A DNA stretch of 64,000 bases from Candidatus Forterrea multitransposorum CG_2015-17_Forterrea_25_41 (lineage in GTDB: Archaea; Iainarchaeota; Iainarchaeia; Iainarchaeales; CSSED10-239): contig CP045477.1 in NCBI GenBank assembly GCA_009392915.1, positions 192,001 through 256,000 of the forward strand, written 5' to 3'. A model generated the notes under the pieces. The model was not told the origin of the DNA, did not search any database, and worked only from the letters and a program-made list of their open reading frames with translations. A program made the translations under genes and the position numbers. Shown here piece after piece: positions 155-40,317 of this stretch (position 1 is its first letter; each line of letters begins with the position of its first letter).

Positions 155-3100
155 TTAATTTTGATATTTATATCTTACAATAACAATTCCAGAACCACCA
201 TTTCCACCATTTGCTGATGAATTTGTTGCTGATCCGTTTCCACCATTTCCTGTGTTTGCAGCAGCAGAAGATGCATCTGAGTGAGCATCACCACCTTTAG
301 CATAAGTGTTTCCCCAAATGGTCATACCAGGACCTCCATTAGGTACTGTTCCAGGTCCTCCCGCTCCTCCTCCTCCACCAGCTCCAACATTAACAACAGA
401 GGTTGCACCAGGATATCCAAATCCTGTATTAGGATACCCATCATTTGTACTTGGTTGTGTTGCACTTCCACCATTTGCAGGCACTGCACTATAAAGGTTT
501 GCACCTCCACCTGAACCACCTGATGTACCATCTCTGGAAGGATTATCTCTTGATCCTCCACCACCACCACCATATGCAATTAAATTTTTAAATACAGAAT
601 TATTTCCATTATTTCCTGTAAAGTCTTGATTTGTAGAACCTGTTCCTCCTGCTCCTACAGTAACAGTAATATTTCCAGTACTTGAAAGTGTGTAGTCTTC
701 AACATATACAAGACCTCCAGCACCTCCTCCTCCAGGATTTCTTAAAGTATTTGTTCCTGCTTTTCCAGCACCTCCACCACCACCAACAACTAAAACATCT
801 ACTTTTCCCTCTCCTAATGTTGTTACATTAAATGTTCCACTTGATGTAAAAGTATGATATTTATAGTCTCCAGAAGTTGTAACTGTTCCTCCTGTTGCTT
901 CTAAATATCCTTGATTTATTGTTAAGTTTATAGATGCTCCTGCTGTTTGATATTGATCATTTACTATTAAAGTTATCTTATGTTCTCCTGATGATAGATT
1001 AGTTGTTGAAAAGTTACAAGTTGAACTTAAAGTTCCATCTATATTTGAATCCCAATAACATGAATGGCTTCCAGATGGATTTGTAATTGTTGAATTAAAA
1101 GTTAGGTTTTCGCCATAATTATGTGTTGATGAGTTTGAGGGAGTATCAATTGTAACTGATATTGGATTAGGTATGCTACGCATAAATATCCAAGATATAC
1201 CTACAATTCCAATTTCTTCAACTCTTAATAAAGGAATTGTACCATCGGGATCAAATGAAGAAATACTGACTGATGTAAAATCTCCACTTGTTCCTGTTAC
1301 AACTGTTGAATTATTAATTATTAAATTTCCTGAATTTGAAGAATAAGATGCAGCAGTAGATCCTAATCCATAATAGACTCTTAATTGGTTTATGTCACTA
1401 GGTCCATTCCATGTATTCATTGTAAGTAATCCATTATCTGCAGGTCCACTATAGAAAAATGATAAAAATTCAGGTCTTCTTGTATAACTTGCAAAATTAA
1501 CATTTACTCCATCATTATAATGTGTATAATAATCTAGATTATAACCATATGTAGATAGATCTGTAGTTAATATACGGTTACCATTCCATGCAGGATAAGA
1601 TGAGTCATAAGTATTATCTGTTGAAAATGAAGAATACAACATCCAACCTCCTCCATTATCTTCCATATTACAATAAATTTGAGTTGGAACTCCGTCTTTT
1701 AATATCCAATAAACTCCGTTTGTAGCACTTGGATTGTTATTTTTAATATACATTGCAGAAGGTGCTGCTTTTTCTGAAGAACTTCCATCTAAATCTATAA
1801 TTGTTATTGAAATATTTTTATCTATAGTTTGTTCTTGATCAGTAACAGATAATGTTATTGTATGTTCTCCAACTGTTAAACTACTTGTTGAAAAATCACA
1901 ATTACTTGATAAACTTCCATCTATAGATGATACCCAAGAACAACTATAACTTCCGTTTTCATTTTCTATTTGAGAATTAAAATCAATTGCTTCTCCAAAA
2001 CTGAATGTTTGTAAGTTTGTAGGAGAATTAATATTTATTGTAAGTTCTTCAACATATTCATTTTTAGTATTATCATAAATTGCTTTAATTTCATTTAAAT
2101 TTAAACTTCTGCCATATAGTCTATAGTCTGAAATCATTCCTTTAAAATATCTTGTATTTGTAGAATTTATTCCAAATTTAACTCCTCCACCTTGTGTTTC
2201 ATAACTATAAATTTCTTCTAATGTTTTTTCTAAGTTTCCATTAATATAACCTTTTAAAGTTTTTAATGTTTCATCATATGTAACTGTATAATTAATCCAT
2301 TTATTTTCTTCAACAGGATCTGAAAGCTCATAAGTTGAATATCCTCCATCTAAATCTCTCCATCTTATTTCCATTTTTTTATCAACAGGATTAATACTAA
2401 CTCTAAGATTATTTTTTTGAGACCAAAAGAAACTTTCATGTTCTAAACTTTGATTTTCTGTATAATATATCCATCCATTTATTGTAAATGAACTATAATC
2501 ACCTACATTTGAAACATTAATATAATCATTAGCTCCATCTAAATTTAATTTAGAACTACTATTCCAATTTGCAGTTCCAACAATACTTCCATTATTAGAA
2601 TTTCCTGAATAATCGTATACTGTGCTTCCTTCTCCTTCATCTATTTTCCAATATCCAATTATTTGATAATCAATACAGTCAAGTACATTATAGTTATTTG
2701 TTTTAATAGGTTTTACAATTTCTCTCCCTTTATCTGTATTTAATTTTAATATATAATTTTCTTCAGGAGCACATACAACATCTATTTCTTTAGTTTCTTT
2801 TTTTTCAATAGTTATTGGTTCTTCAAAAAATATATTTTTATTTAAATATTCTGTATCAACAGCATCTGATGCAATAAAATAACTAGTTAATACTAAATCT
2901 TGATTAATATTGTTGTTTGAAAGTACAATACTTTGATTTACAACTTCTTCAATTAAGATTTCATCTCCAATTCTTTGTATCTCAATTATAGGAATATTAT
3001 TATTTTTATCCACAACACTAAATCTTAATTCTTCAAGTCCAGGCATAATATCAATGTAGTTATAAAAAAGAATATTATTATTATAATCAATATTATAAAG

Positions 3101-3463
3101 TAGACTTGTTTCTTGTCTATTAATTATAAGTGATCCTATTTGGCTTTGTGTTTTTAGATTTTCAATACTTCTTTTATTTTTAATTTCTTGTCTTAAATAA
3201 AGATTACTTGAGTTATTATCAACTGTAATTGGGTCACTTAAATCTAAATAAACTTCTTTATAGCTTCCAACTTCTGAATCTTTTAAATCTGTTAAAATAT
3301 CATTAATATATGCTAAGTTATCTCTGTTGTTTTTCATTCTTTGTGAATCTTCTAGAGTTCCAAAATAATTCATTGCAAAATAAATAAATATACCTAAAAA
3401 TATAATACTTACAAAAAGAATTGCTATTCCTGAAAATAAAGATGTTACTCCTTTTTGATTCAT
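155..3463 (-). CDS. Pilin-like (class III signal peptide) multidomain adhesin: LamG + 2 PKD/Ig-like + fibrinogen-like + C-terminal Gly-rich domain
   Basis: The N-terminus MNQKG/VTSLFSGIAILFVSIIF is basic-Gly followed by a hydrophobic helix. LamG/ConA-like motif: GYWKIDEGEGSTVYDYSGNSNNGSIVG...LDGANDYINV...FTINGWIY. PKD-like modules: SYSCSWVSSIDGSL...GEHTITLSVTDQEQT and SHSCYWDSNIDGTL...GEHKITLIVNDQYQT. Fibrinogen-like motif: NGVYWILKDGVPTQIYCNMEDNGGGWMLY. C-terminal domain: FTSSGTFNVT...VDVLVVGGGGGAG... Its start overlaps the stop of the upstream gene by 1 nt (TAATG). Confidence 0.85.
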   Translation of the reverse strand: MNQKGVTSLFSGIAILFVSIIFLGIFIYFAMNYFGTLEDSQRMKNNRDNLAYINDILTDLKDSEVGSYKEVYLDLSDPITVDNNSSNLYLRQEIKNKRSIENLKTQSQIGSLIINRQETSLLYNIDYNNNILFYNYIDIMPGLEELRFSVVDKNNNIPIIEIQRIGDEILIEEVVNQSIVLSNNNINQDLVLTSYFIASDAVDTEYLNKNIFFEEPITIEKKETKEIDVVCAPEENYILKLNTDKGREIVKPIKTNNYNVLDCIDYQIIGYWKIDEGEGSTVYDYSGNSNNGSIVGTANWNSSSKLNLDGANDYINVSNVGDYSSFTINGWIYYTENQSLEHESFFWSQKNNLRVSINPVDKKMEIRWRDLDGGYSTYELSDPVEENKWINYTVTYDETLKTLKGYINGNLEKTLEEIYSYETQGGGVKFGINSTNTRYFKGMISDYRLYGRSLNLNEIKAIYDNTKNEYVEELTININSPTNLQTFSFGEAIDFNSQIENENGSYSCSWVSSIDGSLSSNCDFSTSSLTVGEHTITLSVTDQEQTIDKNISITIIDLDGSSSEKAAPSAMYIKNNNPSATNGVYWILKDGVPTQIYCNMEDNGGGWMLYSSFSTDNTYDSSYPAWNGNRILTTDLSTYGYNLDYYTHYNDGVNVNFASYTRRPEFLSFFYSGPADNGLLTMNTWNGPSDINQLRVYYGLGSTAASYSSNSGNLIINNSTVVTGTSGDFTSVSISSFDPDGTIPLLRVEEIGIVGISWIFMRSIPNPISVTIDTPSNSSTHNYGENLTFNSTITNPSGSHSCYWDSNIDGTLSSTCNFSTTNLSSGEHKITLIVNDQYQTAGASINLTINQGYLEATGGTVTTSGDYKYHTFTSSGTFNVTTLGEGKVDVLVVGGGGGAGKAGTNTLRNPGGGGAGGLVYVEDYTLSSTGNITVTVGAGGTGSTNQDFTGNNGNNSVFKNLIAYGGGGGGSRDNPSRDGTSGGSGGGANLYSAVPANGGSATQPSTNDGYPNTGFGYPGATSVVNVGAGGGGGAGGPGTVPNGGPGMTIWGNTYAKGGDAHSDASSAAANTGNGGNGSATNSSANGGNGGSGIVIVRYKYQN

Positions 3464-6739: not shown

Positions 6740-8188
6740 ATGCACGAAGATCTTTTTAACACCCTAAACCCACATCAAAAAGCATATATTAATTTTGAAA
6801 TTCCAAATGTTAAAAATGGAGAATATATGTTATGTGCTTTCCATTTAAGACCTGGAGGAGATTTAAATATCTTACAAGCAGCTTGTGAAACAGCAGCTGA
6901 ATCTTCAACTGGTACAAATTTTTTAGTAAACACAGAAACTCCTTTTGCAAGAGAGATGAATGCTTTAGTTTATAAATTAGATTTAGAAAAAAGTTTAGTA
7001 TGGATAGCATATCCTTGGAGACTTTTTGATAGAGGAGGAAATGTTCAAAATATCTTAACATACATTGTAGGAAATGTTTTAGGTATGAAAGAAGTTTCTG
7101 CAATTAAACTTTTAGATGTTTGGTTTCCACCAGCTATGCTTGAACAATACGATGGACCTTCCTATACTTTAGATGATATGAGAAAATATTTAGATGTTTA
7201 TGATAGACCAATTTTAGGAACAATTATAAAACCAAAAATGGGTTTAACTTCAGCAGAATATGCAGAAGCATGCTATGATTTCTGGGTTGGTGGAGGAGAT
7301 TTTGTTAAAAATGATGAACCTCAAGCAAACCAAGATTTCTGTCCATATGATAAAATGGTAAAACATGTAAAAGAAGCTATGGATAAAGCTGTAAAAGAAA
7401 CTGGTCATAAAAAAGTACATTCTTTCAATGTTTCAGCTGCAGATTATGATACAATGATTGAAAGATGTGAAATGATTGTTAATGCAGGTTTTGAAAAAGG
7501 ATCTTATGCATTTTTAATAGATGGAACTACTGCAGGTTGGATGGCAGTTCAAACTTTAAGACGTAAATATCCTGATGTTTTCCTTCATTTCCATAGAGCA
7601 GGACATGGAGCATATACAAGACCTGAAAATCCAATTGGTTTTTCTGTTTTAGTATTATCTAAATTTGCAAGACTTGCAGGAGCTTCTGGTATTCATACAG
7701 GAACTGCAGGTGTAGGAAAAATGGCAGGTACTCCAACAGAAGATATTACAGCTGCAACTGGTATTTTAAAATTAGTCTCAGAAGGACATATTTTCCATCA
7801 ATCATGGTCAACTGTTCCTGAAAAAGATTTAGATGTTGTAAAGCTTGCACAAGAGGATGAAGCTCATCATGTTATCTTAGAAGATGATAGTTGGAGAGGT
7901 CTTAAAAAATGTACTCCAATAATCTCTGGTGGTCTAAATCCAACTCTTCTTAAACCATTTATTGATTTAATGGGTGGAGTTGATTTTATAACAACTATGG
8001 GTGCTGGTTGTCATGCTCATCCAAAAGGTACACAAGCAGGCGCTAAGGCTTTAGTTCAAGCATGTGAAGCATACCAGAAAGGAATTTCTATTGAAGAATA
8101 TTCAAAAGATAGACCTGAGCTTGCAGAAGCTATTGAGTTTTTTACAAAGAAAAAGCATGTTGATAACTTAAAGAAGGAGTTTTCTTAA
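6740..8188 (+). CDS. rbcL: Ribulose-1,5-bisphosphate carboxylase/oxygenase large subunit, form II/III
   Basis: Form II-type active-site motifs: TIIKPKMGL, GGGDFVKNDEPQANQ, FHRAGHGA, SGIHTGT, TPIISGG. There is also a ~29-aa insertion (STVPEKDLDVVKLAQEDEAHHVILEDDSWRGLK) where form II has a short GGMKA-like segment. Confidence 0.95.
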   Translation: MHEDLFNTLNPHQKAYINFEIPNVKNGEYMLCAFHLRPGGDLNILQAACETAAESSTGTNFLVNTETPFAREMNALVYKLDLEKSLVWIAYPWRLFDRGGNVQNILTYIVGNVLGMKEVSAIKLLDVWFPPAMLEQYDGPSYTLDDMRKYLDVYDRPILGTIIKPKMGLTSAEYAEACYDFWVGGGDFVKNDEPQANQDFCPYDKMVKHVKEAMDKAVKETGHKKVHSFNVSAADYDTMIERCEMIVNAGFEKGSYAFLIDGTTAGWMAVQTLRRKYPDVFLHFHRAGHGAYTRPENPIGFSVLVLSKFARLAGASGIHTGTAGVGKMAGTPTEDITAATGILKLVSEGHIFHQSWSTVPEKDLDVVKLAQEDEAHHVILEDDSWRGLKKCTPIISGGLNPTLLKPFIDLMGGVDFITTMGAGCHAHPKGTQAGAKALVQACEAYQKGISIEEYSKDRPELAEAIEFFTKKKHVDNLKKEFS

Positions 8189-18972: not shown

Positions 18973-20421
18973 TTGTGTTTTATTATGATTTTCAAACAAT
19001 CAAAGAATCAAATTAAAAGAGATTTCTCTTTTTCTGTAAAAGATGGGATTTTTTGGGTACTAATGAATTCTATAGCTATAATTTTTTTAGTTCCATATTT
19101 AGTTTCTTTAGGTGCAAATTCTTTTCAAATAGGTCTTTTAAATTCATTTCCTTTATTTATAACTTCTTTTTTAGTTTTAATATCTTATAAACTTTTAAAA
19201 ATATTTAAATCTAAAAAACATGCAGTTGTAATTTTTTTAACATTACAAGCTTTAATGTGGATTCCTCTTGCAATGGCTTATTTCTTTTTTCCAAATTCAA
19301 TTACTATTTGGATTATAATTTTAATTTATACAATAATAACTGCTTTAGGAACAATTATTCATCCAATTTACATGGACTGGATAAGAAAACTTTTTCCAAC
19401 AAAACAAATGGGTTCTTATATTGCAAAAAAAAATATAATTTTAGAGTTTGTTTCAATTTTTCCAATTTTTTTAATAGGTTATATTTTAGATGTTATTTTC
19501 AAATCAAATACTTTTATTGGTTATTCAATAATTTTTGTATTTGCAGGAATATTTAGATATTTTTCAACAAGATTTTTAAATAAAATGAGTGAAACAGAAG
19601 ATAAAGAAGCTATTTTAAAACTTGTAAAAGAAAAAGAAAAAATTCCTCTTTTAAAATCTTTTAAAGATGAAGTTATAAAAGATAAGTCTTTTTTAAAGTT
19701 TTTAATTTTTATCATTCTATCATATATTGGTATTCACTTAGCAACTTCTTATGTTTCTTATTTTGTTTTAAACTTTTTAAATTATTCTTCTACTCAATAT
19801 GTTCTATGGAAAATTTCTTTTATTTTAGGAACTGTTTTAAGTTTAAGTTATTGGGGTTATATTTCAGATAAATATAGTCCTGTAAAAGTTTTACAAATAA
19901 GTACTTTATTTATGCCTTTATTTTTAATAATTCCTGCATTCTTTTATTCTAGTTATTCTTTAATGATTTTTTCAATTTTTGTTGGAGGTGTTATTTTTGG
20001 TGCTTTTAATTTAGGGGTTTTAGATTATCTTTTTAAAAATATAAAAAGAGATTTAATAGGTCATAGTTCTTATTTTTTAATAATACAAGCAAGTTCAATT
20101 TTTATTGGAACTCTTCTAGGTTCTGGAATAATTTATTTAGCAACAAAATTTTATTCTTCAGAATTCAAGGCTTTAATATTTTTATTTGTATTTACAATAT
20201 TTTTTAGATACATAGCATTTTTCTATTCTTTAAAGCTTAAAAAATTAGAAAGAAGAGATCTTAGATTTTTTAAATATGTTATTTTTCAAAGACCTGTTCT
20301 TTATGGTTTACTTCAATTTACTCATCTTTCACATGAAGAAAAAAAATTACTACTTGATTTAAAATTAAAATCTGAATTTAAAAAAATTAAATCAAAATTA
20401 TTTAATCAGAAAAAACAGTAG
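18973..20421 (+). CDS. MFS-type transporter
   Basis: About 12 hydrophobic helices with a central cytoplasmic loop (NKMSETEDKEAILKLVKEKEK), which is the major-facilitator layout. The likely start is ATG 18985. Substrate unknown. Confidence 0.6.
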   Translation: MCFIMIFKQSKNQIKRDFSFSVKDGIFWVLMNSIAIIFLVPYLVSLGANSFQIGLLNSFPLFITSFLVLISYKLLKIFKSKKHAVVIFLTLQALMWIPLAMAYFFFPNSITIWIIILIYTIITALGTIIHPIYMDWIRKLFPTKQMGSYIAKKNIILEFVSIFPIFLIGYILDVIFKSNTFIGYSIIFVFAGIFRYFSTRFLNKMSETEDKEAILKLVKEKEKIPLLKSFKDEVIKDKSFLKFLIFIILSYIGIHLATSYVSYFVLNFLNYSSTQYVLWKISFILGTVLSLSYWGYISDKYSPVKVLQISTLFMPLFLIIPAFFYSSYSLMIFSIFVGGVIFGAFNLGVLDYLFKNIKRDLIGHSSYFLIIQASSIFIGTLLGSGIIYLATKFYSSEFKALIFLFVFTIFFRYIAFFYSLKLKKLERRDLRFFKYVIFQRPVLYGLLQFTHLSHEEKKLLLDLKLKSEFKKIKSKLFNQKKQ

Positions 20422-22924
20422 CTGTTTTTCCTCCATCCCATGTAATTCTTGGTCTTATTTTTAGAAGCATTACTTTTTCGGAGTTATCATCAATCATTAT
20501 TGCATATCCTTGTTCTTTTGGCATTTGTGCATAATATTTATCCATAGGTATATTTAGATAACTAGGTCTAATTGATGAAACTGCTTGAATATCTTCTTGT
20601 GCTGTCATTCTCATACTTAAGAAAAGATCACATTGAGAGATTGTTTCAGAATGTAGTTTATTTGGTCTTTGGGTTGCAAGGATTAATGAAAGTCCTGGTT
20701 GCCTTCCAACTCTTATCCATTGCAATAAAACATCTAAAGCCATACTAGGTCTGTCTTGAGGCATAAACATGTGTGCTTCATCTATTACCATCCAGACAAT
20801 AGGCATTTCACTTGTTTTTCTTTTTCCTTCAAGAAGATTTTTTTCTTCTTCTTTTCTATAAAGCATTCTTTCTTCATATAGTCTTTTTCCTAAAAGTCCA
20901 ACTATAAGTTCTTGAACTGATTCCATTCCAATTGCTTGTTTATATGTTGAAACATCAATTGTTGTAATTGTTCCTGGCTTTGCAAATTCTTTCATAGTTG
21001 TTCCTGATTTTGAAAAAAGACCCCATGATTTTGCAATTTTCATTCTATTTATTAAAGAGTCTTTAATTTCTTTTGTTGTTTCTGAATCTGTTAAAGCTAC
21101 TTTAATAATATCATCAATATCATAAAGATTTCCAAGTTTTTGTTTTAAAATATCAATACTTCTTGACAGAAGTCCAGATTCTGGATCTCTCCAAGTTAGT
21201 CTAAAAAGACCAAGCCAGTCTTCTAAATCTACTTGTGAAGATCTTATTGAAAAAGGTGAATCAAAAGGTATTTCTTTTTCTTTATAAAAATCTTGTTTTC
21301 CTGCAGGAATCATATTTCTAATACCAATACCATCTGCCTTTAAATCCCATTTATCTAATAGTTCTTTAGGTACTTCTTTATTTGGATAGTTCATGGTCCA
21401 AAAAATACCTACAGTGTCAATAACAATTACAGAAAGTCTATCTTTAACATCAAAAGGTTGTCTTGCAAATTCTTCCATAACAACAGATAGAGTATAACTG
21501 TTGTGTATTATTATATTATTTGCAATAAAATTATGGTTTTTTAAAACTGTTATGTCATAAACTTCAAATTTTCCTTTTAAATGATTAATTTCTTTAATCT
21601 CATCCCAATAGATATCTGATGTTGCTATTTTTTCAAGTTCTTTATTATTTTCTTTTTTTGCAATAATTAATAATTTTTCTCTTGAAGGTGCATAATTTAT
21701 TGATGATCTAATTGCTTTTGGTGTTTTATAATTAAATTCTACACCAATATTTTTCCATCCGTTTAAAGGTTTAAAATTATTCCAAATTTCTTTAGGAATT
21801 GTATCAATATTTGGATTTTTAATTTTATTTTTATATTTTAATGTTTTTTTTTCTTTTTCTCCAATAAATCCAATTTCTTTAATATATTTTTCTACATCTT
21901 GTTCTAATATTTCAAGTTCATAACTATCTCTTTTTTTAGTTTTCTTTTTTCTAATTTTTGAAAGTATTTCTAGTTTTAATAAGATTCCTTGAATCTGTAG
22001 TATCATTTTTTTAGAAGAAGATGAGTAACTTATTCTACATCTTTTTTCTTTTTCAAAATAAATTGTTCCATCACAACTAAACATTCTATTTAAAAATAAA
22101 GCAAGGTTTTCTTTTTTTTGTTTAAATATAATTTCTGGAATTTCTTTTTGATATGATAATTTATTATACATTCCAATTTGTTTAATATATTCTTTTAAAC
22201 TTCCTTTCTGGTATGGATTTTCTTTTCCTTTTTTCCATATAACTTTGTAATTATATTTTCCTATTTCTTTTAAGTCTAGTTCTTTATCAAATAATTTTAT
22301 TGAAGATCTAAAATCATTTACAATTTTGTCATCACCATTACAAAAAAGTACAACTCTATTTGAAAGATGCCCTTCTGCAAGAAGATATGCAATTAATTTA
22401 ATATTTTCTTTTTTTAATTTATCTTTACCTATATTATTTAATTTTCTAGGTGTTGCAATTCTTGACTTTACTTTAAGATCTTTTGCTTCTTTCCAACCTT
22501 CTAAAGTAAGTAATGGATGTTCTAAAGTTAATTTTATTTCTTTTCCACTTCTAAGTTTAATTTCTAAAAGTTCATTTACTTTTCTTTTAAAAAAGTTTTC
22601 TTTTTTAGCTTTTTCTATTTTTAAATTATCATTAATAGACATTACTTTAAGATTTGTATTTTCTAAATCTTTTATTTCAATTTCTCTTCCATCTTCTAAA
22701 GCTATTAAAGTGTCTCCAGTTACACATTTTCCGCCGCCCCTTTTTCCGCAGATAATCATTACATGTGATCTTGAAAGATCCATTAATACTTTTTTACCTA
22801 AAACAGGGTCATCTCCTCCAGAGACAACTACTTTTCCTAAATATCCAGTTGCTTTTTCTTTGTATTTATCAAGATCGCTTTGTTTTCTTCCAACTACAAT
22901 ATTATCTGTAAAATCTAAACTCAT
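20402..22924 (-). CDS. HerA-like (DUF87/COG0433, FtsK-HerA superfamily) ATPase interrupted by an intein
   Basis: The spliced Walker A would read ICGKRGGGK-SYTLSVVMEE. Walker B: WMVIDEAHMF. HerA-typical block: LATQRPNKLHSETISQCDLFLSMRMTAQEDIQAV. C-terminus: KIRPRITWDGG. The exteins are 66 + 365 aa. Confidence 0.85.
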   Translation of the reverse strand: MSLDFTDNIVVGRKQSDLDKYKEKATGYLGKVVVSGGDDPVLGKKVLMDLSRSHVMIICGKRGGGKCVTGDTLIALEDGREIEIKDLENTNLKVMSINDNLKIEKAKKENFFKRKVNELLEIKLRSGKEIKLTLEHPLLTLEGWKEAKDLKVKSRIATPRKLNNIGKDKLKKENIKLIAYLLAEGHLSNRVVLFCNGDDKIVNDFRSSIKLFDKELDLKEIGKYNYKVIWKKGKENPYQKGSLKEYIKQIGMYNKLSYQKEIPEIIFKQKKENLALFLNRMFSCDGTIYFEKEKRCRISYSSSSKKMILQIQGILLKLEILSKIRKKKTKKRDSYELEILEQDVEKYIKEIGFIGEKEKKTLKYKNKIKNPNIDTIPKEIWNNFKPLNGWKNIGVEFNYKTPKAIRSSINYAPSREKLLIIAKKENNKELEKIATSDIYWDEIKEINHLKGKFEVYDITVLKNHNFIANNIIIHNSYTLSVVMEEFARQPFDVKDRLSVIVIDTVGIFWTMNYPNKEVPKELLDKWDLKADGIGIRNMIPAGKQDFYKEKEIPFDSPFSIRSSQVDLEDWLGLFRLTWRDPESGLLSRSIDILKQKLGNLYDIDDIIKVALTDSETTKEIKDSLINRMKIAKSWGLFSKSGTTMKEFAKPGTITTIDVSTYKQAIGMESVQELIVGLLGKRLYEERMLYRKEEEKNLLEGKRKTSEMPIVWMVIDEAHMFMPQDRPSMALDVLLQWIRVGRQPGLSLILATQRPNKLHSETISQCDLFLSMRMTAQEDIQAVSSIRPSYLNIPMDKYYAQMPKEQGYAIMIDDNSEKVMLLKIRPRITWDGGKTATVFSD
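21500..22726 (-). mobile_element. Intein (409 aa) with LAGLIDADG homing-endonuclease domain, inserted in the P-loop
   Basis: It starts at Cys67 (GGGK/CVTGDTLIAL) and has block B LTLEHPLL. LAGLIDADG motifs: LIAYLLAEGHL and FLNRMFSCDGTI. The C-terminal splicing block is VYDITVLKNHNFIANNIIIHN/S. Codon positions were checked against the DNA (TGT at 22726..22724, AAC-AGT at 21502..21497). Confidence 0.9.
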
Positions 22925-23601
22925 ATTTTTTCTTTTTTATATTTTTTTAAAAATTCTTTAATTGTTTTTATTGTTATATATCCTGATGCTAATATAATTA
23001 ATATAAATATTATAACTATTAGTACATATGCAATTGATCTTAAATTTATAAAGAAAATAAATAATATTTTAATTAAGTGTGTTTGTATAATTGCTCCTAC
23101 CATTATTGAAATTAAAGCTATGTAAAATAATTTAATATCTTGTTTTGTAAAGAAAATAGCTCTTATCTTATATTTATCTTCTTTAATGATTAAATTATTT
23201 AAAAATATTTTTACAATTAATAATAATGTTTTTATTCCAAGTGTTGAAAATATAATGTATGATATAAAAAATAAAAATTGAGGTATTAATTGAACTAATA
23301 ATTTTACTTGACCTAAAAATGAAGATGTTAATAGTTCAACATGAATATATGCATATTGTATACCTATTGTTAAATAAGCAAATGGTGTGAAAAAAAGATC
23401 TAATGAATTATTAAATATTTCATAAATTGTTTGTTTGAAATAAATTGCACTTGTAAGAGATAAATTTTGTATAAAGTTTGATCCTTCTGTAATTAGGATG
23501 TCTCCTCTTGAGGCATAGATAAAAGCAATTATAATTCCAATAATATATGAAATTCCAAAAGTTGAAGCAATTACTCTATAATAGTTATCTATCTTTACCA
23601 T
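22921..23601 (-). CDS. Polytopic membrane protein translationally coupled to the HerA-like ATPase
   Basis: About 6 hydrophobic helices. Its stop overlaps the ATPase start (ATGA, 22921..22924). No recognisable family. Confidence 0.6.
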   Translation of the reverse strand: MVKIDNYYRVIASTFGISYIIGIIIAFIYASRGDILITEGSNFIQNLSLTSAIYFKQTIYEIFNNSLDLFFTPFAYLTIGIQYAYIHVELLTSSFLGQVKLLVQLIPQFLFFISYIIFSTLGIKTLLLIVKIFLNNLIIKEDKYKIRAIFFTKQDIKLFYIALISIMVGAIIQTHLIKILFIFFINLRSIAYVLIVIIFILIILASGYITIKTIKEFLKKYKKEKI

Positions 23602-23720: not shown

Positions 23721-24161
23721 ATGAAAAGAAAAATTAAAGATTTAAGAAATAAAAAAAATACTGCAGAAAATCATTCTGGAGTTTTAAGAATAAAAAGTGA
23801 AAGATTTAAAATTGAAAGAAATTTAGCTTCTCAAAAACCTCTTGCTATGGAATATAAGTCTGAATATAAGCAAGGATGTTTATTTATTAAGAAAATTTTA
23901 GATTATAAACAAAAAAATAAATTAATATTTTTTACTGGAAAACAAGCTGGTGAGATTTTAAAAAAATATCCAAAACTAGATTCTCCAGAAGCTATAAAAA
24001 GTATATTGATTGCAAGTTCTAATCCTAATTTAAATATTAAAAAAATAAATTCTATAGTTTCTGAAATATATAGTAAAAAGATCTCTGAAAAAGAAAGAAA
24101 AGATATTATTTTTACAATGATCAGAAGTATAAAAATAGAAAACTATGAATACCTTTTATAG
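23721..24161 (+). CDS. Hypothetical basic protein
   Basis: A 146-aa ORF with no competing frame. It is Lys-rich and has no motif I recognise. Confidence 0.45.
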   Translation: MKRKIKDLRNKKNTAENHSGVLRIKSERFKIERNLASQKPLAMEYKSEYKQGCLFIKKILDYKQKNKLIFFTGKQAGEILKKYPKLDSPEAIKSILIASSNPNLNIKKINSIVSEIYSKKISEKERKDIIFTMIRSIKIENYEYLL

Positions 24162-24205: not shown

Positions 24206-24490
24206 CTATTCTTGTTTAATTTCAGTTTTCTTCATTCTTTTTGGTATTACAAAATAACTTTTAGCTTTACAAACTGAACATTCAGCTGTATAAACTGGTT
24301 TTTTATTTTGTTTTTTAACAGGTTTGATTAATTTTGCTTTTCCACCATAACCTGACTTATGTTTAGCTTCATTTTTTCTAGTACCAATAGACATAGCTCT
24401 TGCTTTTCTAGGTTTGAATGCTTTTAATTTTTGTTCTGTATGTTTTTTACATTTTTTACAATATCCTTTTACTGTTTTTGGAAGGTTCAT
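24206..24490 (-). CDS. rpl44e: 50S ribosomal protein L44e (eL42)
   Basis: KTVKGYCKKCKKHTEQKLKAFKPRKA...GYGGKAKLIKPVKKQNKKPVYTAECSVCKAKSYF is the CxxC...CxxC zinc ribbon and conserved core of eL42. Confidence 0.92.
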   Translation of the reverse strand: MNLPKTVKGYCKKCKKHTEQKLKAFKPRKARAMSIGTRKNEAKHKSGYGGKAKLIKPVKKQNKKPVYTAECSVCKAKSYFVIPKRMKKTEIKQE

Positions 24491-35370: not shown

Positions 35371-36285
35371 ATGATTATGGATTCTTATAAAACAGATTTT
35401 TATAGAGAAGTTAGAGTTAATAATTTGAAGACATATATGTTATTTTTCTTTTTTTTTATATTTATAGGGCTTATAGGTGTTGCTTTATATTTTATATTTT
35501 CTGACTTAGGTGTTGGTATTTTATTTTTTGCAGGGCTATTTGCTATAATATATGCTTTAGTTGGATATTTTGCAGGAGATAAAATTGTACTTTCAACCTC
35601 AAGAGCAAAACCAATAGATCCAAATAATAATCCAAAACATAAGCAATTAGATAATTTAGTTGAAGGTCTTTCTATGGCTGCAGGAATTCCAAAACCAAAA
35701 GTATATATTATTCAAGATAAATCTCCAAATGCTTTTGCAACTGGAAGAAATCCTGAAAATTCATCAGTTGCAGTAACCTCTGGGCTTTTAGAAGTTTTAA
35801 ATAGAGAAGAGCTTGAGGGTGTAATTGCTCATGAACTTTCTCATATTAAAAACAGAGATATAAAAGTTATGACAATGGCAACTGTTCTTTTTGGTCTTGT
35901 TATGATGGTTTCAGATATTGCTTTAAGAGGAATTATTTTTGGAGGTGCTTCTGGAGGAGGAAATGATAATAAAAGTCCTGTTCTTTTAATTATTGCTATA
36001 ATTTTTGTAATTCTTTCTCCTATTATTGCTGCAATGATACAAATGTCAATTTCAAGAAAAAGAGAATATTTAGCAGATGCATCAGGTGCACAAATTACAA
36101 GATATCCTAAAGGACTTTCAAATGCTTTAAGAAAAATTTCTGGAGTTAATATTCCTGTTTCAGGTGCTTCAAGAGGGAGTGCTCATCTTTATATTGCAAA
36201 TCCTTTTAGAGGTAAAAGTTTTTCTGGAATGTTTGCAACACATCCTCCTATTGAAGAAAGAATAAAAAGACTTGATGCAATGTAA
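35371..36285 (+). CDS. htpX: HtpX-like M48 zinc metalloprotease
   Basis: PNAFATGRNPENSSVAVTSGLL, HELSHIKNRD (HExxH), REYLADASGA, and THPPIEERIKRL. The likely start is ATG 35377, 8 nt after the SD AGGTGA. Confidence 0.9.
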   Translation: MIMDSYKTDFYREVRVNNLKTYMLFFFFFIFIGLIGVALYFIFSDLGVGILFFAGLFAIIYALVGYFAGDKIVLSTSRAKPIDPNNNPKHKQLDNLVEGLSMAAGIPKPKVYIIQDKSPNAFATGRNPENSSVAVTSGLLEVLNREELEGVIAHELSHIKNRDIKVMTMATVLFGLVMMVSDIALRGIIFGGASGGGNDNKSPVLLIIAIIFVILSPIIAAMIQMSISRKREYLADASGAQITRYPKGLSNALRKISGVNIPVSGASRGSAHLYIANPFRGKSFSGMFATHPPIEERIKRLDAM

Positions 36286-36384: not shown

Positions 36385-36606
36385 ATGGCTAATATGACTT
36401 TAAGTATACCTGATGATCTTTTAAAAGAATTAAAAAAACACTCTTATATTAAATGGAGTGAAGTTGCAAGAATTGCTTTTGAAGAAAAGGTAAGTGCTTT
36501 AGAAAGAATAGATGTTTTTAAAGAATTTCAAGAAGCTGAAAGAGATTTTAAAGATGGAAAAAGTATTTCTTTAGAACAATTAAAAAAGGAACTTGGTAAA
36601 AAATGA
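36385..36606 (+). CDS. Ribbon-helix-helix (CopG-like) small protein
   Basis: MANMTLSIPDDLLKELKKH... is a typical RHH beta-strand plus helix start. Its stop overlaps the next gene's start (ATGA, 36603..36606). Confidence 0.5.
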   Translation: MANMTLSIPDDLLKELKKHSYIKWSEVARIAFEEKVSALERIDVFKEFQEAERDFKDGKSISLEQLKKELGKK

Positions 36607-37673
36607 TTGAAGAAGAAATTGTAAATTTAATTTCAAAGATTTATGAAAAAAACCAAAGTGTTGTATCTATTTTTAAAGAAAATAATTTTTCTTTACAAAA
36701 GTCATTTTATAATCCTGAAGAAAATATAATTAATCCTATTGTTATTGAAAAAAATCAAAATTTATCATTTTTAGGAGTTGATTCTGGTTTTGTAAATAAA
36801 CAATTTAATTTTGCAAATTTAATTATTATTAAAGAAGCAGGAGCTTTATTTAATTATAAAGATTCAAAACTTTCTTCTGTTAAATATTTTCCAAAAATAT
36901 ATAATATTGCAAAACCATATCTTACAACTTCTTCTTTAGAAATTGAAGAAATTATTTGGAATACTTCTATTCTAAGGCTTAAAAAAGAACTTTCTCTTTC
37001 AAAAAAAATTATGGAATCTGAAAAAGTAAATTTTTCTTTAATAGATGGTTCTATTATTCCTCAATATTTATCTAAACCTTCAAAAGATTCAAAATATTAT
37101 AAAGATTATTCTTTTCTTTTATCCTTATTTTTTTCACTTTATGAAATTTCTAAAAATAAAAAAATATTTTTAGTAGGGTGTGTTGAAGATTCTAGAGCTG
37201 ATAGATTTTTTAATATTTTAAAAAATAATTATTTTAAAGATAAAATAAATTTTGATCTTTCAGATTCTTTTTTAGTATTTTCTCTTCTTTCAAAAAATCA
37301 AAGAACTTGTGTTTTTAGATATACTGATGATTTAAGAGAGCATCCTATCTTAAAAGATTTTCCAAAAGAAATTGTTGATAATTTATATGTTTGTTATTTA
37401 AAGCTTTCAGAAGAGGATTATCCTTTAAGAATAGAATTTATTTATTTTAAAGAATTTGGAATGTCTTTAAAAGAATATACAGATTATATAATTTCAAATA
37501 TTGCGTCTATCTCTTCTTTTAATAAAAGATATATATATCCTGCACCATTAATTGAAGCTGATTTACAGAGTAGACTAAAAATACAAGAAATTGATTTATT
37601 GGTTAGAAATTTTCTTGAAAAAACTAAAAAGTTTGGTCTTAAAGTGCCAAGAAGAGAAGCAAGGTCTTTTTGA
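36603..37673 (+). CDS. nurA: NurA-domain nuclease-like protein
   Basis: The N-terminal catalytic-type motif FLGVDSGF and the second motif FSLIDGSIIPQY resemble the NurA DGS motifs. Size (356 aa) fits. This is a motif-level call only. Confidence 0.6.
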   Translation: MIEEEIVNLISKIYEKNQSVVSIFKENNFSLQKSFYNPEENIINPIVIEKNQNLSFLGVDSGFVNKQFNFANLIIIKEAGALFNYKDSKLSSVKYFPKIYNIAKPYLTTSSLEIEEIIWNTSILRLKKELSLSKKIMESEKVNFSLIDGSIIPQYLSKPSKDSKYYKDYSFLLSLFFSLYEISKNKKIFLVGCVEDSRADRFFNILKNNYFKDKINFDLSDSFLVFSLLSKNQRTCVFRYTDDLREHPILKDFPKEIVDNLYVCYLKLSEEDYPLRIEFIYFKEFGMSLKEYTDYIISNIASISSFNKRYIYPAPLIEADLQSRLKIQEIDLLVRNFLEKTKKFGLKVPRREARSF

Positions 37674-39852: not shown

Positions 39853-40317
39853 ATGACACAAAATGACAATATCACAAAACAGATATTTTTAGAAAAGTTA
39901 TTAAAACAAGATACCAAAGAGCTGGGTTTGAATGATCTTATTCAGATCCAAGAGAAGTTTAACGATCCGTTGATACTTTCTGTAATATTACATCAACTTT
40001 TAGAAGAAAGAAAAAGAACAAACGAGATATTAAAAGATCTTTATGAAAAGTATGACTCTTTACAATTTTCTATTAAGAATAGTAAAGAATCTAGTAATTT
40101 AAATCAAGATCAAGATACAATTAATATCTTACCAGAAATAGATGATAAGATAATTTCTTTTATAAGAGCAAATCAAAAAGTTGATGCAGAACAAGTACAG
40201 GAAGCATTTAATTATAAAGGATCAAATGCAGCTTCTCAAAGACTTAATAGACTAGTAAAAGAAGGATACTTACGAAAAGTTCAAGCAGGAAGAAAGGTAT
40301 ACTTTATTGTAAAATGA
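39853..40317 (+). CDS. Winged-helix DNA-binding protein with N-terminal helical region
   Basis: C-terminal wHTH-like KIISFIRANQKVDAEQVQEAFNYKGSNAASQRLNRLVKEGYLRKVQAGRKVYFIV. It sits immediately upstream of a repeat-rich 540-nt intergenic region. Confidence 0.6.
   Translation: MTQNDNITKQIFLEKLLKQDTKELGLNDLIQIQEKFNDPLILSVILHQLLEERKRTNEILKDLYEKYDSLQFSIKNSKESSNLNQDQDTINILPEIDDKIISFIRANQKVDAEQVQEAFNYKGSNAASQRLNRLVKEGYLRKVQAGRKVYFIVK

What the first reader, a model, noticed from the sequence alone, without database searches (positions are those of the whole stretch)
20402..23601. HerA-like ATPase is coupled to a polytopic membrane protein, while the NurA-like nuclease sits 13 kb away coupled to an RHH protein
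Seen in sequence: the membrane protein 22921..23601 overlaps the ATPase start by ATGA. The NurA-like gene (36603..37673) instead overlaps a 73-aa RHH gene by ATGA (36385..36606). Established: canonical archaeal herA-nurA (often with mre11-rad50) are adjacent and act in DNA end resection. FtsK-HerA superfamily ATPases paired with membrane proteins are typically DNA or macromolecule translocation pumps. Inference: this ATPase may be a membrane-associated translocase (DNA uptake or export between symbiont and host?) rather than the NurA partner. The RHH-NurA pair may be a separate regulated nuclease or a TA-like or defence module.
Basis: inference. Interest (0 to 1): 0.5.

Follow-up and report, generated by a model that had tools for sequence, protein, structure and literature searches.

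The report
HerA-like ATPase paralog with membrane partner
A DPANN archaeon (Iainarchaeota) carries a second, strongly conserved HerA-like motor ATPase that is not the partner of the NurA repair nuclease; in this one low-GC lineage it is co-encoded with a lineage-specific membrane protein of unknown function, and the small gene overlapping nurA is a leftover antitoxin.

Summary
ORFs 22921..23601(-) (226 aa, 5-6 helices) and 20402..22924(-) (840 aa) overlap by ATGA, as do RHH 36385..36606 and NurA 36603..37673.

The ATPase carries a 409-aa LAGLIDADG intein in its P-loop. The 431-aa extein belongs to a near length-invariant family found in at least 574 species genomes, nearly all Iainarchaeota among the best 80.

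- **Not the canonical NurA partner.** It lacks the HAS-barrel that HerA needs to bind NurA. It scores far below the curated HerA models. It is never within 6 kb of nurA in 80 loci.
- **A separate HerA exists.** In related genomes nurA sits beside a different 511-513-aa HerA. One 831-kb contig carries both paralogs.
- **The membrane link is narrow.** It occurs in 16 loci of the window's low-GC clade (ATPase at least 72% identical) and in none of 68 more distant loci. The membrane protein has only 3 full-length clusters among 1.84 billion representatives, and no family or fold match.
- **RHH-NurA is not a module.** The closest relatives run M48 peptidase then nurA directly. One has RHH-ParE-NurA and one has a truncated RHH.

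A membrane-tethered translocase remains plausible for this clade only, and is untested.

The parts
22921..23601 (-). Polytopic membrane protein of 226 aa, a lineage-restricted ORFan and the first gene of the pair
   Evidence: ORF. Hydrophobic segments. AF2 all-helical model, pLDDT 84. 25 homologs at 41-98% identity with a conserved H..LLTSSFLGQ.KL motif. No Pfam, NCBIfam or PDB match. Only 6 hits among 1.84 billion representatives.
20402..22924 (-). Intein-interrupted HerA-clade P-loop ATPase precursor (840 aa). Its start overlaps the membrane gene's stop by ATGA.
22727..22924 (-). N-extein (aa 1-66): a short beta-rich N-terminal region plus the first half of Walker A (GKRGGGK)
   Evidence: AF2 strands at 9-11, 26-35 and 41-49. 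No HAS-barrel hit.
21500..22726 (-). Intein (aa 67-475, 409 aa) with a LAGLIDADG homing-endonuclease domain. Begins with Cys, ends with His-Asn, followed by Ser+1.
   Evidence: Pfam Intein_splicing 5.3e-31 and LAGLIDADG_3 1.1e-14. NCBIfam intein N- and C-terminal models. Same insertion site in 15 of 80 related loci.
20402..21499 (-). C-extein (aa 476-840): rest of the RecA-like core, helical insertion, Walker B (WMVIDEAHMF) and the ATQRP motif
36385..36606 (+). Orphan RHH antitoxin (73 aa), a remnant of an RHH-ParE toxin-antitoxin cassette. Its stop overlaps the nurA start by ATGA.
   Evidence: 45% identity (2.7e-20) to the RHH_12 gene of L090, which is followed by ParE and then NurA. Weak VapB/RelB antitoxin hits. 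Absent in L091 and L092, truncated in L093.
36603..37673 (+). NurA nuclease ortholog (356 aa), with no adjacent HerA in this clade
   Evidence: Pfam NurA 1.2e-10. 116 homologs, several named NurA by NCBI. No 511-type HerA in the window.
35371..36285 (+). M48 peptidase gene, the conserved upstream neighbour of nurA in the window's clade (context)
   Evidence: Peptidase_M48 lies upstream of NurA in L090, L091, L092 and L093. Directly adjacent in L091 and L092. The RHH-ParE genes and a 212-aa gene intervene in L090, and a 45-aa RHH remnant intervenes in L093. The window ORF itself was listed and identified by synteny; it was not scanned directly.
24206..24490 (-). Ribosomal protein L44e gene, the conserved upstream neighbour of the membrane-ATPase pair in this clade (context)
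   Evidence: Ribosomal_L44 precedes the membrane gene in L004, L005 and L006. A 93-105-aa ORF sits at the same position in most near-clade loci.

Best explanation
**What is there.** The region is a two-gene operon: a small 5-6-helix membrane protein, then an intein-interrupted ATPase of the HerA clade of the FtsK-HerA superfamily. Protein splicing removes the 409-aa intein and restores the P-loop, giving a 431-aa enzyme. That enzyme has a HerA-type RecA core and helical insertion but no HAS-barrel.

**What the ATPase is.** It is the ortholog of a strongly constrained family: 50-60% identity across divergent members and near-constant length. The family occurs in at least 574 species genomes, and the 80 best hits are nearly all Iainarchaeota. 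It is a paralog of the canonical HerA of about 511 aa. That canonical HerA, not this protein, sits beside nurA in related genomes. This ATPase is therefore not the canonical end-resection partner of NurA.

**Inferred mechanism.** Like its structural relatives, it probably forms a ring and uses ATP to translocate a polymer, most probably DNA. In the window's low-GC sublineage only, a newly arisen membrane protein is translationally coupled to it. That protein probably tethers or regulates a fraction of the ATPase at the membrane. I put about 0.4 on a real physical complex.

**The RHH-NurA overlap.** It is unrelated. The RHH is an orphan antitoxin left from an RHH-ParE cassette that inserted between the M48-peptidase gene and nurA.
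For: **Shown**
- Anatomy and overlaps are as described.
- Intein domains and splice residues are present.
- The family gives 1828 hits. The best 120 are mostly about 431 aa and at least 54% identical. There are at least 574 species hits, and the best 80 are nearly all labelled Iainarchaeum, ainarchaeum or archaeon.
- No HAS-barrel. Walker A is at residue 63, against 165-167 in NurA-adjacent HerA. hhalign covers only HerA residues 154-480.
- Curated HerA models score 32-43 bits for the extein, against 141-163 bits for NurA-adjacent HerA.
- NurA lies next to a 511-513-aa DUF87 ATPase in L087, L088 and L089. L087's 831,093-bp contig has the same length as the longest contig recorded for P0094, a 431-family member.
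- No NurA lies within 6 kb of the ATPase in the 80 related loci.
- A rough NJ tree separates the 431 family from NurA-adjacent HerA.
- The membrane gene is immediately upstream in 16 related loci plus the window, and in none of 68 distant loci.
- RHH history is traced.

**From the literature**
- Deleting the HAS domain abolishes HerA-NurA complex formation (PMC3326311).

**Inferred**
- Ring assembly, the DNA substrate and membrane tethering.
Against: - The membrane gene is absent from all distant orthologous loci and from the sister locus L015.
- The ATPase architecture is the same with and without the membrane gene.
- The whole XPD-L44e-[membrane]-ATPase block is syntenic in this clade. Conserved adjacency alone therefore does not prove a functional link.
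- No multimer prediction or experiment was possible.
- I could not determine whether the window's own genome still has a 511-type HerA. None is in the 64-kb window or within 4-10 kb of nurA in four near-clade loci. A NurA role for this ATPase in this clade is therefore not formally excluded.
- The translocated substrate is unknown.
Confidence: 0.6

Rival explanations
1. **Incidental co-transcription.** The membrane ORFan arose or inserted between the L44e gene and the ATPase gene in one lineage. It shares a transcript with the ATPase in a compact genome, with no physical or functional link.
For: - The membrane family is confined to the near clade, with 3 full-length clusters among 1.84 billion representatives.
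- Sister locus L015 has L44e then the ATPase with no membrane gene.
- ATPase domain architecture is unchanged between clades.
- The flanking block is syntenic anyway.
Against: - The gap is -11 to +15 bp in all 16 related loci, although membrane-protein identity falls to 41%.
- Only 3 of 28 same-strand gene pairs in the window overlap.
- The membrane protein keeps 30 invariant columns and a constant length, so it is under selection.
Confidence: 0.3
2. **NurA partner after all.** In this low-GC clade the canonical HerA was lost, and the 431-aa ATPase now serves as NurA's motor, acting in trans from about 13 kb away.
For: - No 511-type HerA is in the window or within 4-10 kb of nurA in L090-L093.
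- NurA is retained and conserved in the clade.
- nurA and the ATPase gene stay on the same contig about 11-14 kb apart in at least one relative, CAZQEL010000007.1.
Against: - The ATPase has no HAS-barrel, the domain required for NurA binding (PMC3326311).
- The same ATPase coexists with a NurA-adjacent HerA in other Iainarchaeota.
- Low-GC (29-30%) metagenome contigs L151 and L182 encode 505-508-aa HerA of the NurA-adjacent type with no nurA beside it. Unlinked canonical HerA therefore exists in low-GC archaea. These contigs could not be tied to the window's clade.
Confidence: 0.07
3. **Defence or mobile-element module.** The ATPase-membrane pair, or the RHH-NurA pair, is an anti-virus system or part of a DNA-transfer element.
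For: - Partial PADLOC HerA hits reach 72 bits, and mad8 reaches 51 bits.
- A 33%-identical, 389-aa homolog on a Haloplanus plasmid overlaps an upstream 380-aa gene beside a BREX ATP-binding protein.
- The RHH resembles antitoxins.
Against: - The ATPase is conserved across at least 574 species, amid housekeeping genes such as L44e, an XPD-like helicase, tRNAs and Alba.
- There is no phage match, and the PHROG hits are only partial.
- HerA511 hits the same PADLOC models more strongly, so those hits are not specific.
- No effector gene is present.
- The membrane protein matches no CedA, T4SS or other model.
- The RHH is not conserved with NurA.
Confidence: 0.03

Closest known systems
Canonical archaeal HerA (NurA partner; Sulfolobus HerA PDB 4d2i; NCBIfam NF040819 and NF040937)
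   Different: No HAS-barrel: about 50 aa precede Walker A, against about 165. About 25% identity to NurA-adjacent HerA. Only 32-43 bits on the curated HerA models. Never beside nurA, mre11 or rad50. Coexists with a canonical HerA in the same genome.
FtsK/SpoIIIE and TraB-type membrane-anchored DNA pumps
   Same: Same superfamily. In this clade the motor is genetically coupled to a polytopic membrane protein, which would resemble a split FtsK.
Crenarchaeal Ced DNA-import system (CedA membrane protein plus CedB ATPase) and VirB4-type T4SS ATPases
   Different: The window extein has no CedB or CedD hit at E up to 1, and its AR10 ortholog P0035 scores only 17 bits on CedB. The membrane protein has no NCBIfam match. 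There are no pilin, CedA1/A2 or other T4SS genes nearby. The ATPase is a widely conserved chromosomal gene, not a system-specific one.
Effector-coupled HerA ATPases of defence systems (Sir2-HerA, DUF4297-HerA, MADS mad8, DndH/DptH C-domain)
   Different: Housekeeping context, wide vertical conservation and no enzymatic effector. The hits are partial and weaker than those of the canonical HerA paralog.
Type II RHH-ParE/RelE toxin-antitoxin modules (for the RHH gene)
   Same: The window RHH is 45% identical to an RHH_12 antitoxin that precedes a ParE toxin at the same genomic position in L090.
   Different: No toxin gene remains in the window. The RHH now abuts nurA directly.

Membership tests
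Canonical HerA (NurA-partner helicase, COG0433 / NF040819 / NF040937) | N-terminal HAS-barrel domain, which mediates NurA binding | tested here: not met
   No PF09378 hit. Walker A is at residue 63, against 165-167 in NurA-adjacent HerA. hhalign aligns only to residues 154-480 of the 511-aa HerA. The requirement for the HAS domain comes from PMC3326311.
Canonical HerA (NurA-partner helicase, COG0433 / NF040819 / NF040937) | RecA-like ATPase core with helical insertion, Walker A and B | tested here: met
Canonical HerA (NurA-partner helicase, COG0433 / NF040819 / NF040937) | Gene linkage with nurA (often also mre11 and rad50) | tested here: not met
   No NurA within 6 kb in 80 related loci, and 13.7 kb apart on opposite strands in the window. 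NurA instead neighbours a 511-513-aa paralog in L087-L089.
Canonical HerA (NurA-partner helicase, COG0433 / NF040819 / NF040937) | Score at or above the curated NCBIfam equivalog cut-off | tested here: not met
   42.7 bits against a cut-off of 970 (NF040819), and 32 against 800 (NF040937). The DPANN 511-aa HerA also falls below the cut-offs (141-163 bits), so this test alone is weak.
FtsK/SpoIIIE | Fused N-terminal transmembrane domain and an FtsK-type motor reaching the Pfam gathering score | tested here: not met
Ced DNA import system (CedA/CedB) | CedB-type ATPase and CedA-type membrane protein recognised by the NCBIfam models | tested here: not met
   The window extein has no CedB or CedD hit at E up to 1. 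Its ortholog P0035 scores 17 bits on CedB against a cut-off of 700. The membrane protein has no NCBIfam hit at E up to 0.1.
VirB4 / type IV secretion ATPase | VirB4 family model match and accompanying T4SS genes | tested here: not met
   TIGR00929 scores 12 bits against a cut-off of 643. No T4SS components were seen among the neighbours.
FtsK-HerA superfamily ring translocase (functional class) | Hexameric ring assembly and NTP-driven polymer translocation | not testable with these tools
   Only a monomer model could be made. Oligomer prediction and biochemistry were unavailable.
Intein (HINT plus LAGLIDADG homing endonuclease) | Cys1, a C-terminal His-Asn followed by a Ser/Thr/Cys +1 nucleophile, splicing blocks and an endonuclease domain | tested here: met
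   C67...HN475|S476. PF14890 scores 108 bits, PF14528 54.9 bits, and TIGR01445 and TIGR01443 both match.
NurA nuclease | NurA domain above the Pfam gathering score | tested here: met
   PF09376 scores 41.8 bits against a cut-off of 21. Homologs are annotated NurA.
Type II toxin-antitoxin module (RHH antitoxin plus ParE/RelE toxin) | RHH antitoxin gene | tested here: met
   45% identity, E 2.7e-20, to the L090 RHH_12 antitoxin. Weak VapB and RelB antitoxin hits.
Type II toxin-antitoxin module (RHH antitoxin plus ParE/RelE toxin) | Adjacent cognate toxin gene | tested here: not met
   The RHH stop overlaps the nurA start, leaving no room for a toxin ORF. ParE is present only in L090.

The most novel reading that the evidence does not exclude
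The 431-aa HAS-less HerA paralog is the housekeeping DNA pump of Iainarchaeota, for example for chromosome segregation or clearance, or for DNA exchange. In the window's low-GC lineage it has acquired a dedicated, newly evolved membrane subunit. The result would be a split FtsK- or Ced-like trans-membrane DNA translocase, possibly used for DNA traffic between a DPANN cell and its host.
Probability: 0.12. Interest if true: 0.75.

Novelty: new variant of a known kind. Interest (0 to 1): 0.36.

Why it matters
DPANN genome annotations label this protein 'HerA-like ATPase' or 'ATP-binding protein'. A reader could therefore take it for the NurA repair partner. Two HerA-clade paralogs exist in Iainarchaeota, and only the 511-aa one is linked to nurA. 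Recognising this prevents mis-assignment of the DNA end-resection machinery.

It also isolates a strongly conserved, intein-targeted motor ATPase with no known function. The family is found in at least 574 species genomes. Its high constraint and the intein in its P-loop suggest an important cellular role.

The lineage-specific membrane partner is a tractable test of whether new membrane subunits can be recruited to an old soluble motor. The RHH-NurA case is a caution: an ATGA overlap in one genome does not establish a functional pair.

Tried and rejected
**Literature and libraries**
- The Iyer et al. 2004 FtsK-HerA classification paper is not held.
- The AFDB fold library was unavailable.

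**Membrane protein**
- Pfam and NCBIfam gave no hits.
- A Pfam scan of 19 family members gave nothing at E below 2.8.
- A PDB profile search gave only noise.
- tblastn against plasmids gave no match.
- I suspected a SpoIIM-like protein from memory, but nothing supported it.

**ATPase**
- The phage collection gave no match.
- PHROGs and PADLOC gave only partial C-terminal superfamily hits.

**Canonical HerA in the window's genome**
- None is in the window.
- An AT-rich-codon pattern scan of metagenomes recovered low-GC HerA genes of 505-508 aa with no adjacent nurA (L151, L182). No flanking gene matched the window or the ATPase-family loci L001-L086, so they cannot be assigned to this clade.

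**Conserved neighbours in distant loci**
- The 159-aa winged-helix protein and the 155-aa coiled-coil protein gave only weak ArsR- or LexA-like wHTH hits.

**Haloplanus upstream 380-aa protein**
- There is no NurA similarity, no TM segment and no PDB match.
- A PglZ or alkaline-phosphatase resemblance is my recollection of the motifs, not a test.
Full report
**1. Observation**

- The ATPase ORF is 20402..22924(-), 840 aa.
- The membrane ORF is 22921..23601(-), 226 aa.
- The RHH ORF is 36385..36606(+), 73 aa.
- The NurA ORF is 36603..37673(+), 356 aa.

Both junctions read ATGA, with the stop of the upstream gene sharing bases with the start of the downstream gene. Such overlaps are not the background state of this window. 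Among 28 same-strand neighbour pairs only three overlap, and these two are the only 4-bp ATGA overlaps. The median gap is 86 bp.

The window has about 25% G+C. A 4.6-kb contig of 'Candidatus ainarchaeum sp.' matches the ATPase C-extein at 99% identity (L007). The source is therefore an Iainarchaeota (DPANN) archaeon.

**2. The ATPase**

The ATPase contains an intein.
- Residues 67-475 match Intein_splicing (5e-31), LAGLIDADG_3 (1e-14) and the NCBIfam intein N- and C-terminal models.
- The intein starts with Cys and ends with His-Asn, followed by Ser.
- It interrupts the Walker A motif, GKRGGGK|S.

The spliced extein is 431 aa.
- Sequence models place it only loosely. Pfam DUF87 (HerA central domain) scores 36 bits. 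FtsK_SpoIIIE and HerA_C fall below their cut-offs. There is no HAS-barrel hit.
- The curated NCBIfam HerA equivalogs score only 32-55 bits, all over the C-terminal part.
- PDB sequence hits cover only about 120 C-terminal residues of defence-type and repair HerA proteins.

It is therefore a HerA-clade member of the FtsK-HerA superfamily.

**3. It belongs to a large, tightly constrained family of its own**

- The extein finds 1828 proteins. The best 120 are mostly about 431 aa and at least 54% identical, and several are labelled Diapherotrites, Iainarchaeum or AR10.
- Nineteen diverse members align with 73% mean column identity and about 110 invariant positions.
The best 80 are almost all labelled Iainarchaeum, ainarchaeum or 'archaeon'.
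- Fifteen of those 80 loci carry an intein at the same P-loop site, with ORFs of 789-864 aa.

**4. It is not the canonical NurA partner**

Four lines of evidence agree.

(a) *Gene context of the ATPase.* No NurA homolog lies within 6 kb of the ATPase in any of the 80 related loci.

(b) *Gene context of NurA.* NurA orthologs from more distant Iainarchaeota and Micrarchaeota are followed within 0.05-1.7 kb by a different DUF87 ATPase of 511-513 aa (L087, L088, L089).
- That ATPase has Walker A at residues 165-167 and a weak HAS-barrel hit.
- It scores 141-163 bits on the two curated repair-HerA models, against 32-43 for the extein.
- L087's contig is 831,093 bp, the same length as the longest contig recorded for the 431-family member P0094. 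I take this to mean that both paralogs sit on one contig.

(c) *Domain content.* Profile-profile alignment matches extein residues 50-419 to residues 154-480 of the 511-aa HerA. The 431-aa family therefore lacks the roughly 150-residue N-terminal HAS-barrel region. Blackwood et al. showed that removing the HAS domain of Sulfolobus HerA abolishes complex formation with NurA (PMC3326311).

(d) *Tree.* A rough NJ tree (no bootstrap) puts the 431 family in a clade separate from all NurA-adjacent HerA sequences. A 389-aa Haloplanus plasmid homolog groups with the 431 family.

**5. The membrane partner**

The 226-aa protein has 5-6 hydrophobic segments. Its all-helical AF2 model is confident (pLDDT 84).

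It has only 25 detectable homologs, at 41-98% identity and 221-229 aa. They share 30 invariant columns, including an H..LLTSSFLGQ.KL.V...P motif. It is therefore a real gene under selection.

A profile search of 1.84 billion cluster representatives found six hits, and only three were full-length. Nothing else matched:
- Pfam, NCBIfam and PADLOC gave no significant hit.
- A PDB profile search gave nothing.

In the neighbourhood survey an HMM of this family hit 16 related loci plus the window. Every hit lay immediately upstream of the ATPase gene.
- Where the full gene is present, the gap is -11 to +15 bp.
- In L007 the contig end truncates the gene.
- All these loci have an ATPase at least 72% identical to the window's.

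None of the 68 loci with ATPase identity of 50-62% has the family within 6 kb. Only 3 of the 57 with an evaluable upstream neighbour have any protein with three or more TM segments directly upstream.

The sister locus L015 (71% identity) has L44e followed by the ATPase, with no membrane gene or remnant.

The clade that has the gene is low-GC (23-30%), against 44-51% in the distant loci. Its local gene order is XPD-like helicase, L44e, membrane gene, ATPase, and this order is syntenic across the clade.

The linkage is conserved within one lineage and absent from the rest of the family.

**6. What this implies for mechanism**

The ATPase has the same length and motifs with and without the membrane gene. 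Its primary function therefore predates the membrane protein and does not require it.

The consistently minimal spacing argues for co-transcription and translational coupling. In bacteria and archaea that usually accompanies stoichiometric complexes. But the whole block is syntenic, so adjacency alone is weak evidence.

My best reading is as follows.
- A ring translocase of the HerA clade, with a substrate that is probably DNA, by analogy with every structural neighbour.
- In this lineage it has gained a membrane-tethering or regulatory subunit. I put about 0.4 on a true complex and about 0.3 on incidental co-transcription.
- The rest of the probability is spread over the other rivals.

Specific known membrane-coupled systems were tested and not met.
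- *Ced:* the window extein has no CedB or CedD hit at E up to 1, and its ortholog P0035 scores 17 bits on CedB. The membrane protein has no NCBIfam match.
- *VirB4/T4SS:* model scores are far below cut-off and there are no accessory genes.
- *FtsK:* the Pfam score is below cut-off, with no fused TM domain and no gamma domain.

A defence or mobile-element reading is unlikely because the gene is widely conserved and sits among housekeeping genes. There is also no phage match.

One more distant relative does sit in a defence-like setting. It is 33% identical (E 3e-72) on a Haloplanus megaplasmid. It overlaps by 4 bp with an upstream 380-aa soluble protein, next to a BREX ATP-binding protein. This hints that the wider HAS-less clade pairs with variable upstream partners.

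**7. The RHH-NurA pair**

NurA is a genuine NurA (Pfam 41.8 bits; 116 homologs across DPANN). The RHH is not a conserved partner.
- In the 74%-identical relative L092, and in L091, the M48-peptidase gene is followed directly by nurA.
- In L090 the same position holds an RHH_12 antitoxin that is 45% identical to the window's (E 2.7e-20). It is followed by a ParE toxin and then nurA.
- In L093 a 45-aa ORF at the same position corresponds to only the C-terminal half of the RHH.

The simplest history is that an RHH-ParE cassette inserted between the M48 gene and nurA and then decayed to different degrees. The window keeps only the antitoxin, and its stop now abuts nurA. Nothing supports a regulated-nuclease or defence module.

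**8. Open point**

I could not establish whether the window's genome retains a 511-type HerA.
- None is in the window.
- None is within 4-10 kb of nurA in four near-clade loci.
- A metagenome scan with an AT-rich codon pattern recovered 29-30% GC contigs (L151, L182) that encode 505-508-aa HerA of the NurA-adjacent type with no nurA beside it.
- It also recovered a 30% GC contig with nurA and herA adjacent (L128).
- None of these could be tied to the window's clade.

This leaves a small probability (about 0.07) that the 431-aa ATPase cooperates with NurA in this clade despite lacking the HAS domain.

**9. Verdict**

What is there is a previously uncharacterised, strongly constrained HAS-less paralog of HerA. 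It carries a P-loop intein and, in one low-GC lineage, is paired with a new membrane protein. It is a new variant within a known superfamily, not a new kind of system. Its function is unresolved. Interest is moderate.

Noticed in passing
window 21500..22726 (-); also L009, L013, L015, L016, L018-L020, L070, L081-L086: A 409-aa LAGLIDADG intein splits the Walker A motif of the ATPase. The same insertion site is occupied in 15 of 80 related loci (ORFs of 789-864 aa). One homolog, P0106 (592 aa), appears to carry a mini-intein.
   Followed up: partly
window 39853..40317 (+); L002:5333-5812 and 47 other ORFs (46 distinct far-clade loci): A family of about 159 aa, with a helical N-terminus and a C-terminal winged helix (weak ArsR- or LexA-like hits). 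It lies on the same strand upstream of the 431-aa ATPase in 46 of 68 distant loci, and directly adjacent in 13 (gaps of 125-261 bp). In the window it is 17 kb away, 2.2 kb downstream of nurA. Function unknown.
   Followed up: partly
L003:5476-5943 (-) and 21 other loci: A coiled-coil protein of about 155 aa is divergently transcribed directly upstream of the ATPase in a subset of distant Iainarchaeota. It has no family match and no homolog in the window.
   Followed up: partly
L003:7360-8679, L046:7345-8661, L057:2143-3441 and about 6 more loci: A 5-TM family-2 glycosyltransferase of about 435 aa (Glyco_trans_2_3, chitin-synthase-like) follows the ATPase on the same strand at 57-119 bp in about 9 distant loci. 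It may be sub-clade synteny or a functional hint.
   Followed up: partly
L214 (Haloplanus sp. HW8-1 plasmid NZ_CP098519.1) 6841-9149: A 389-aa HAS-less homolog of the ATPase (33% identity, E 3e-72) overlaps by 4 bp with an upstream 380-aa soluble hypothetical protein. They sit beside a BREX ATP-binding-domain protein and a PD-(D/E)XK nuclease/helicase pair. The 380-aa protein has DG..Y..W and DHG motifs that remind me of PglZ or alkaline-phosphatase folds; this was not tested.
   Followed up: partly
window 20402..20421: The 3' ends of the MFS transporter gene (18973..20421, +) and the ATPase gene (20402..22924, -) overlap convergently by 20 bp.
   Followed up: no
window 23721..24161 (+): A 146-aa ORF on the opposite strand sits between the L44e gene and the membrane gene. 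In the related loci L004, L005 and L006, L44e is followed directly by the membrane gene. It has no significant family match and may be a lineage-specific insertion.
   Followed up: no
window 41363..49378, 51298..58269, 58297..63900 (+); 155..3463 (-): Four very large ORFs of 2671, 2323, 1867 and 1102 aa. The 1102-aa one has Laminin_G_3 and Gly_rich_2 domains. They are probably giant surface proteins of the kind common in DPANN genomes.
   Followed up: no
window 6740..8188 (+): A RuBisCO large-subunit homolog (RuBisCO_large 1e-90). Its form was not determined here.
   Followed up: no
L151:3863-5380 and L182:262-1788 (metagenome contigs, 29-30% GC): HerA of 505-508 aa of the NurA-adjacent type, with no nurA next to it, in two mutually syntenic low-GC contigs. 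These may be the unlinked canonical HerA of low-GC Iainarchaeota, but the contigs could not be assigned to a lineage.
   Followed up: partly
L087:4370-4946, L089:3969-4921, L090:9237-10017: Toxin-antitoxin or similar small two-gene cassettes sit immediately upstream of nurA in several DPANN genomes: PIN plus a small ORF, nucleotidyltransferase-HEPN, and RHH-ParE. That position looks like a recurrent insertion spot.
   Followed up: no
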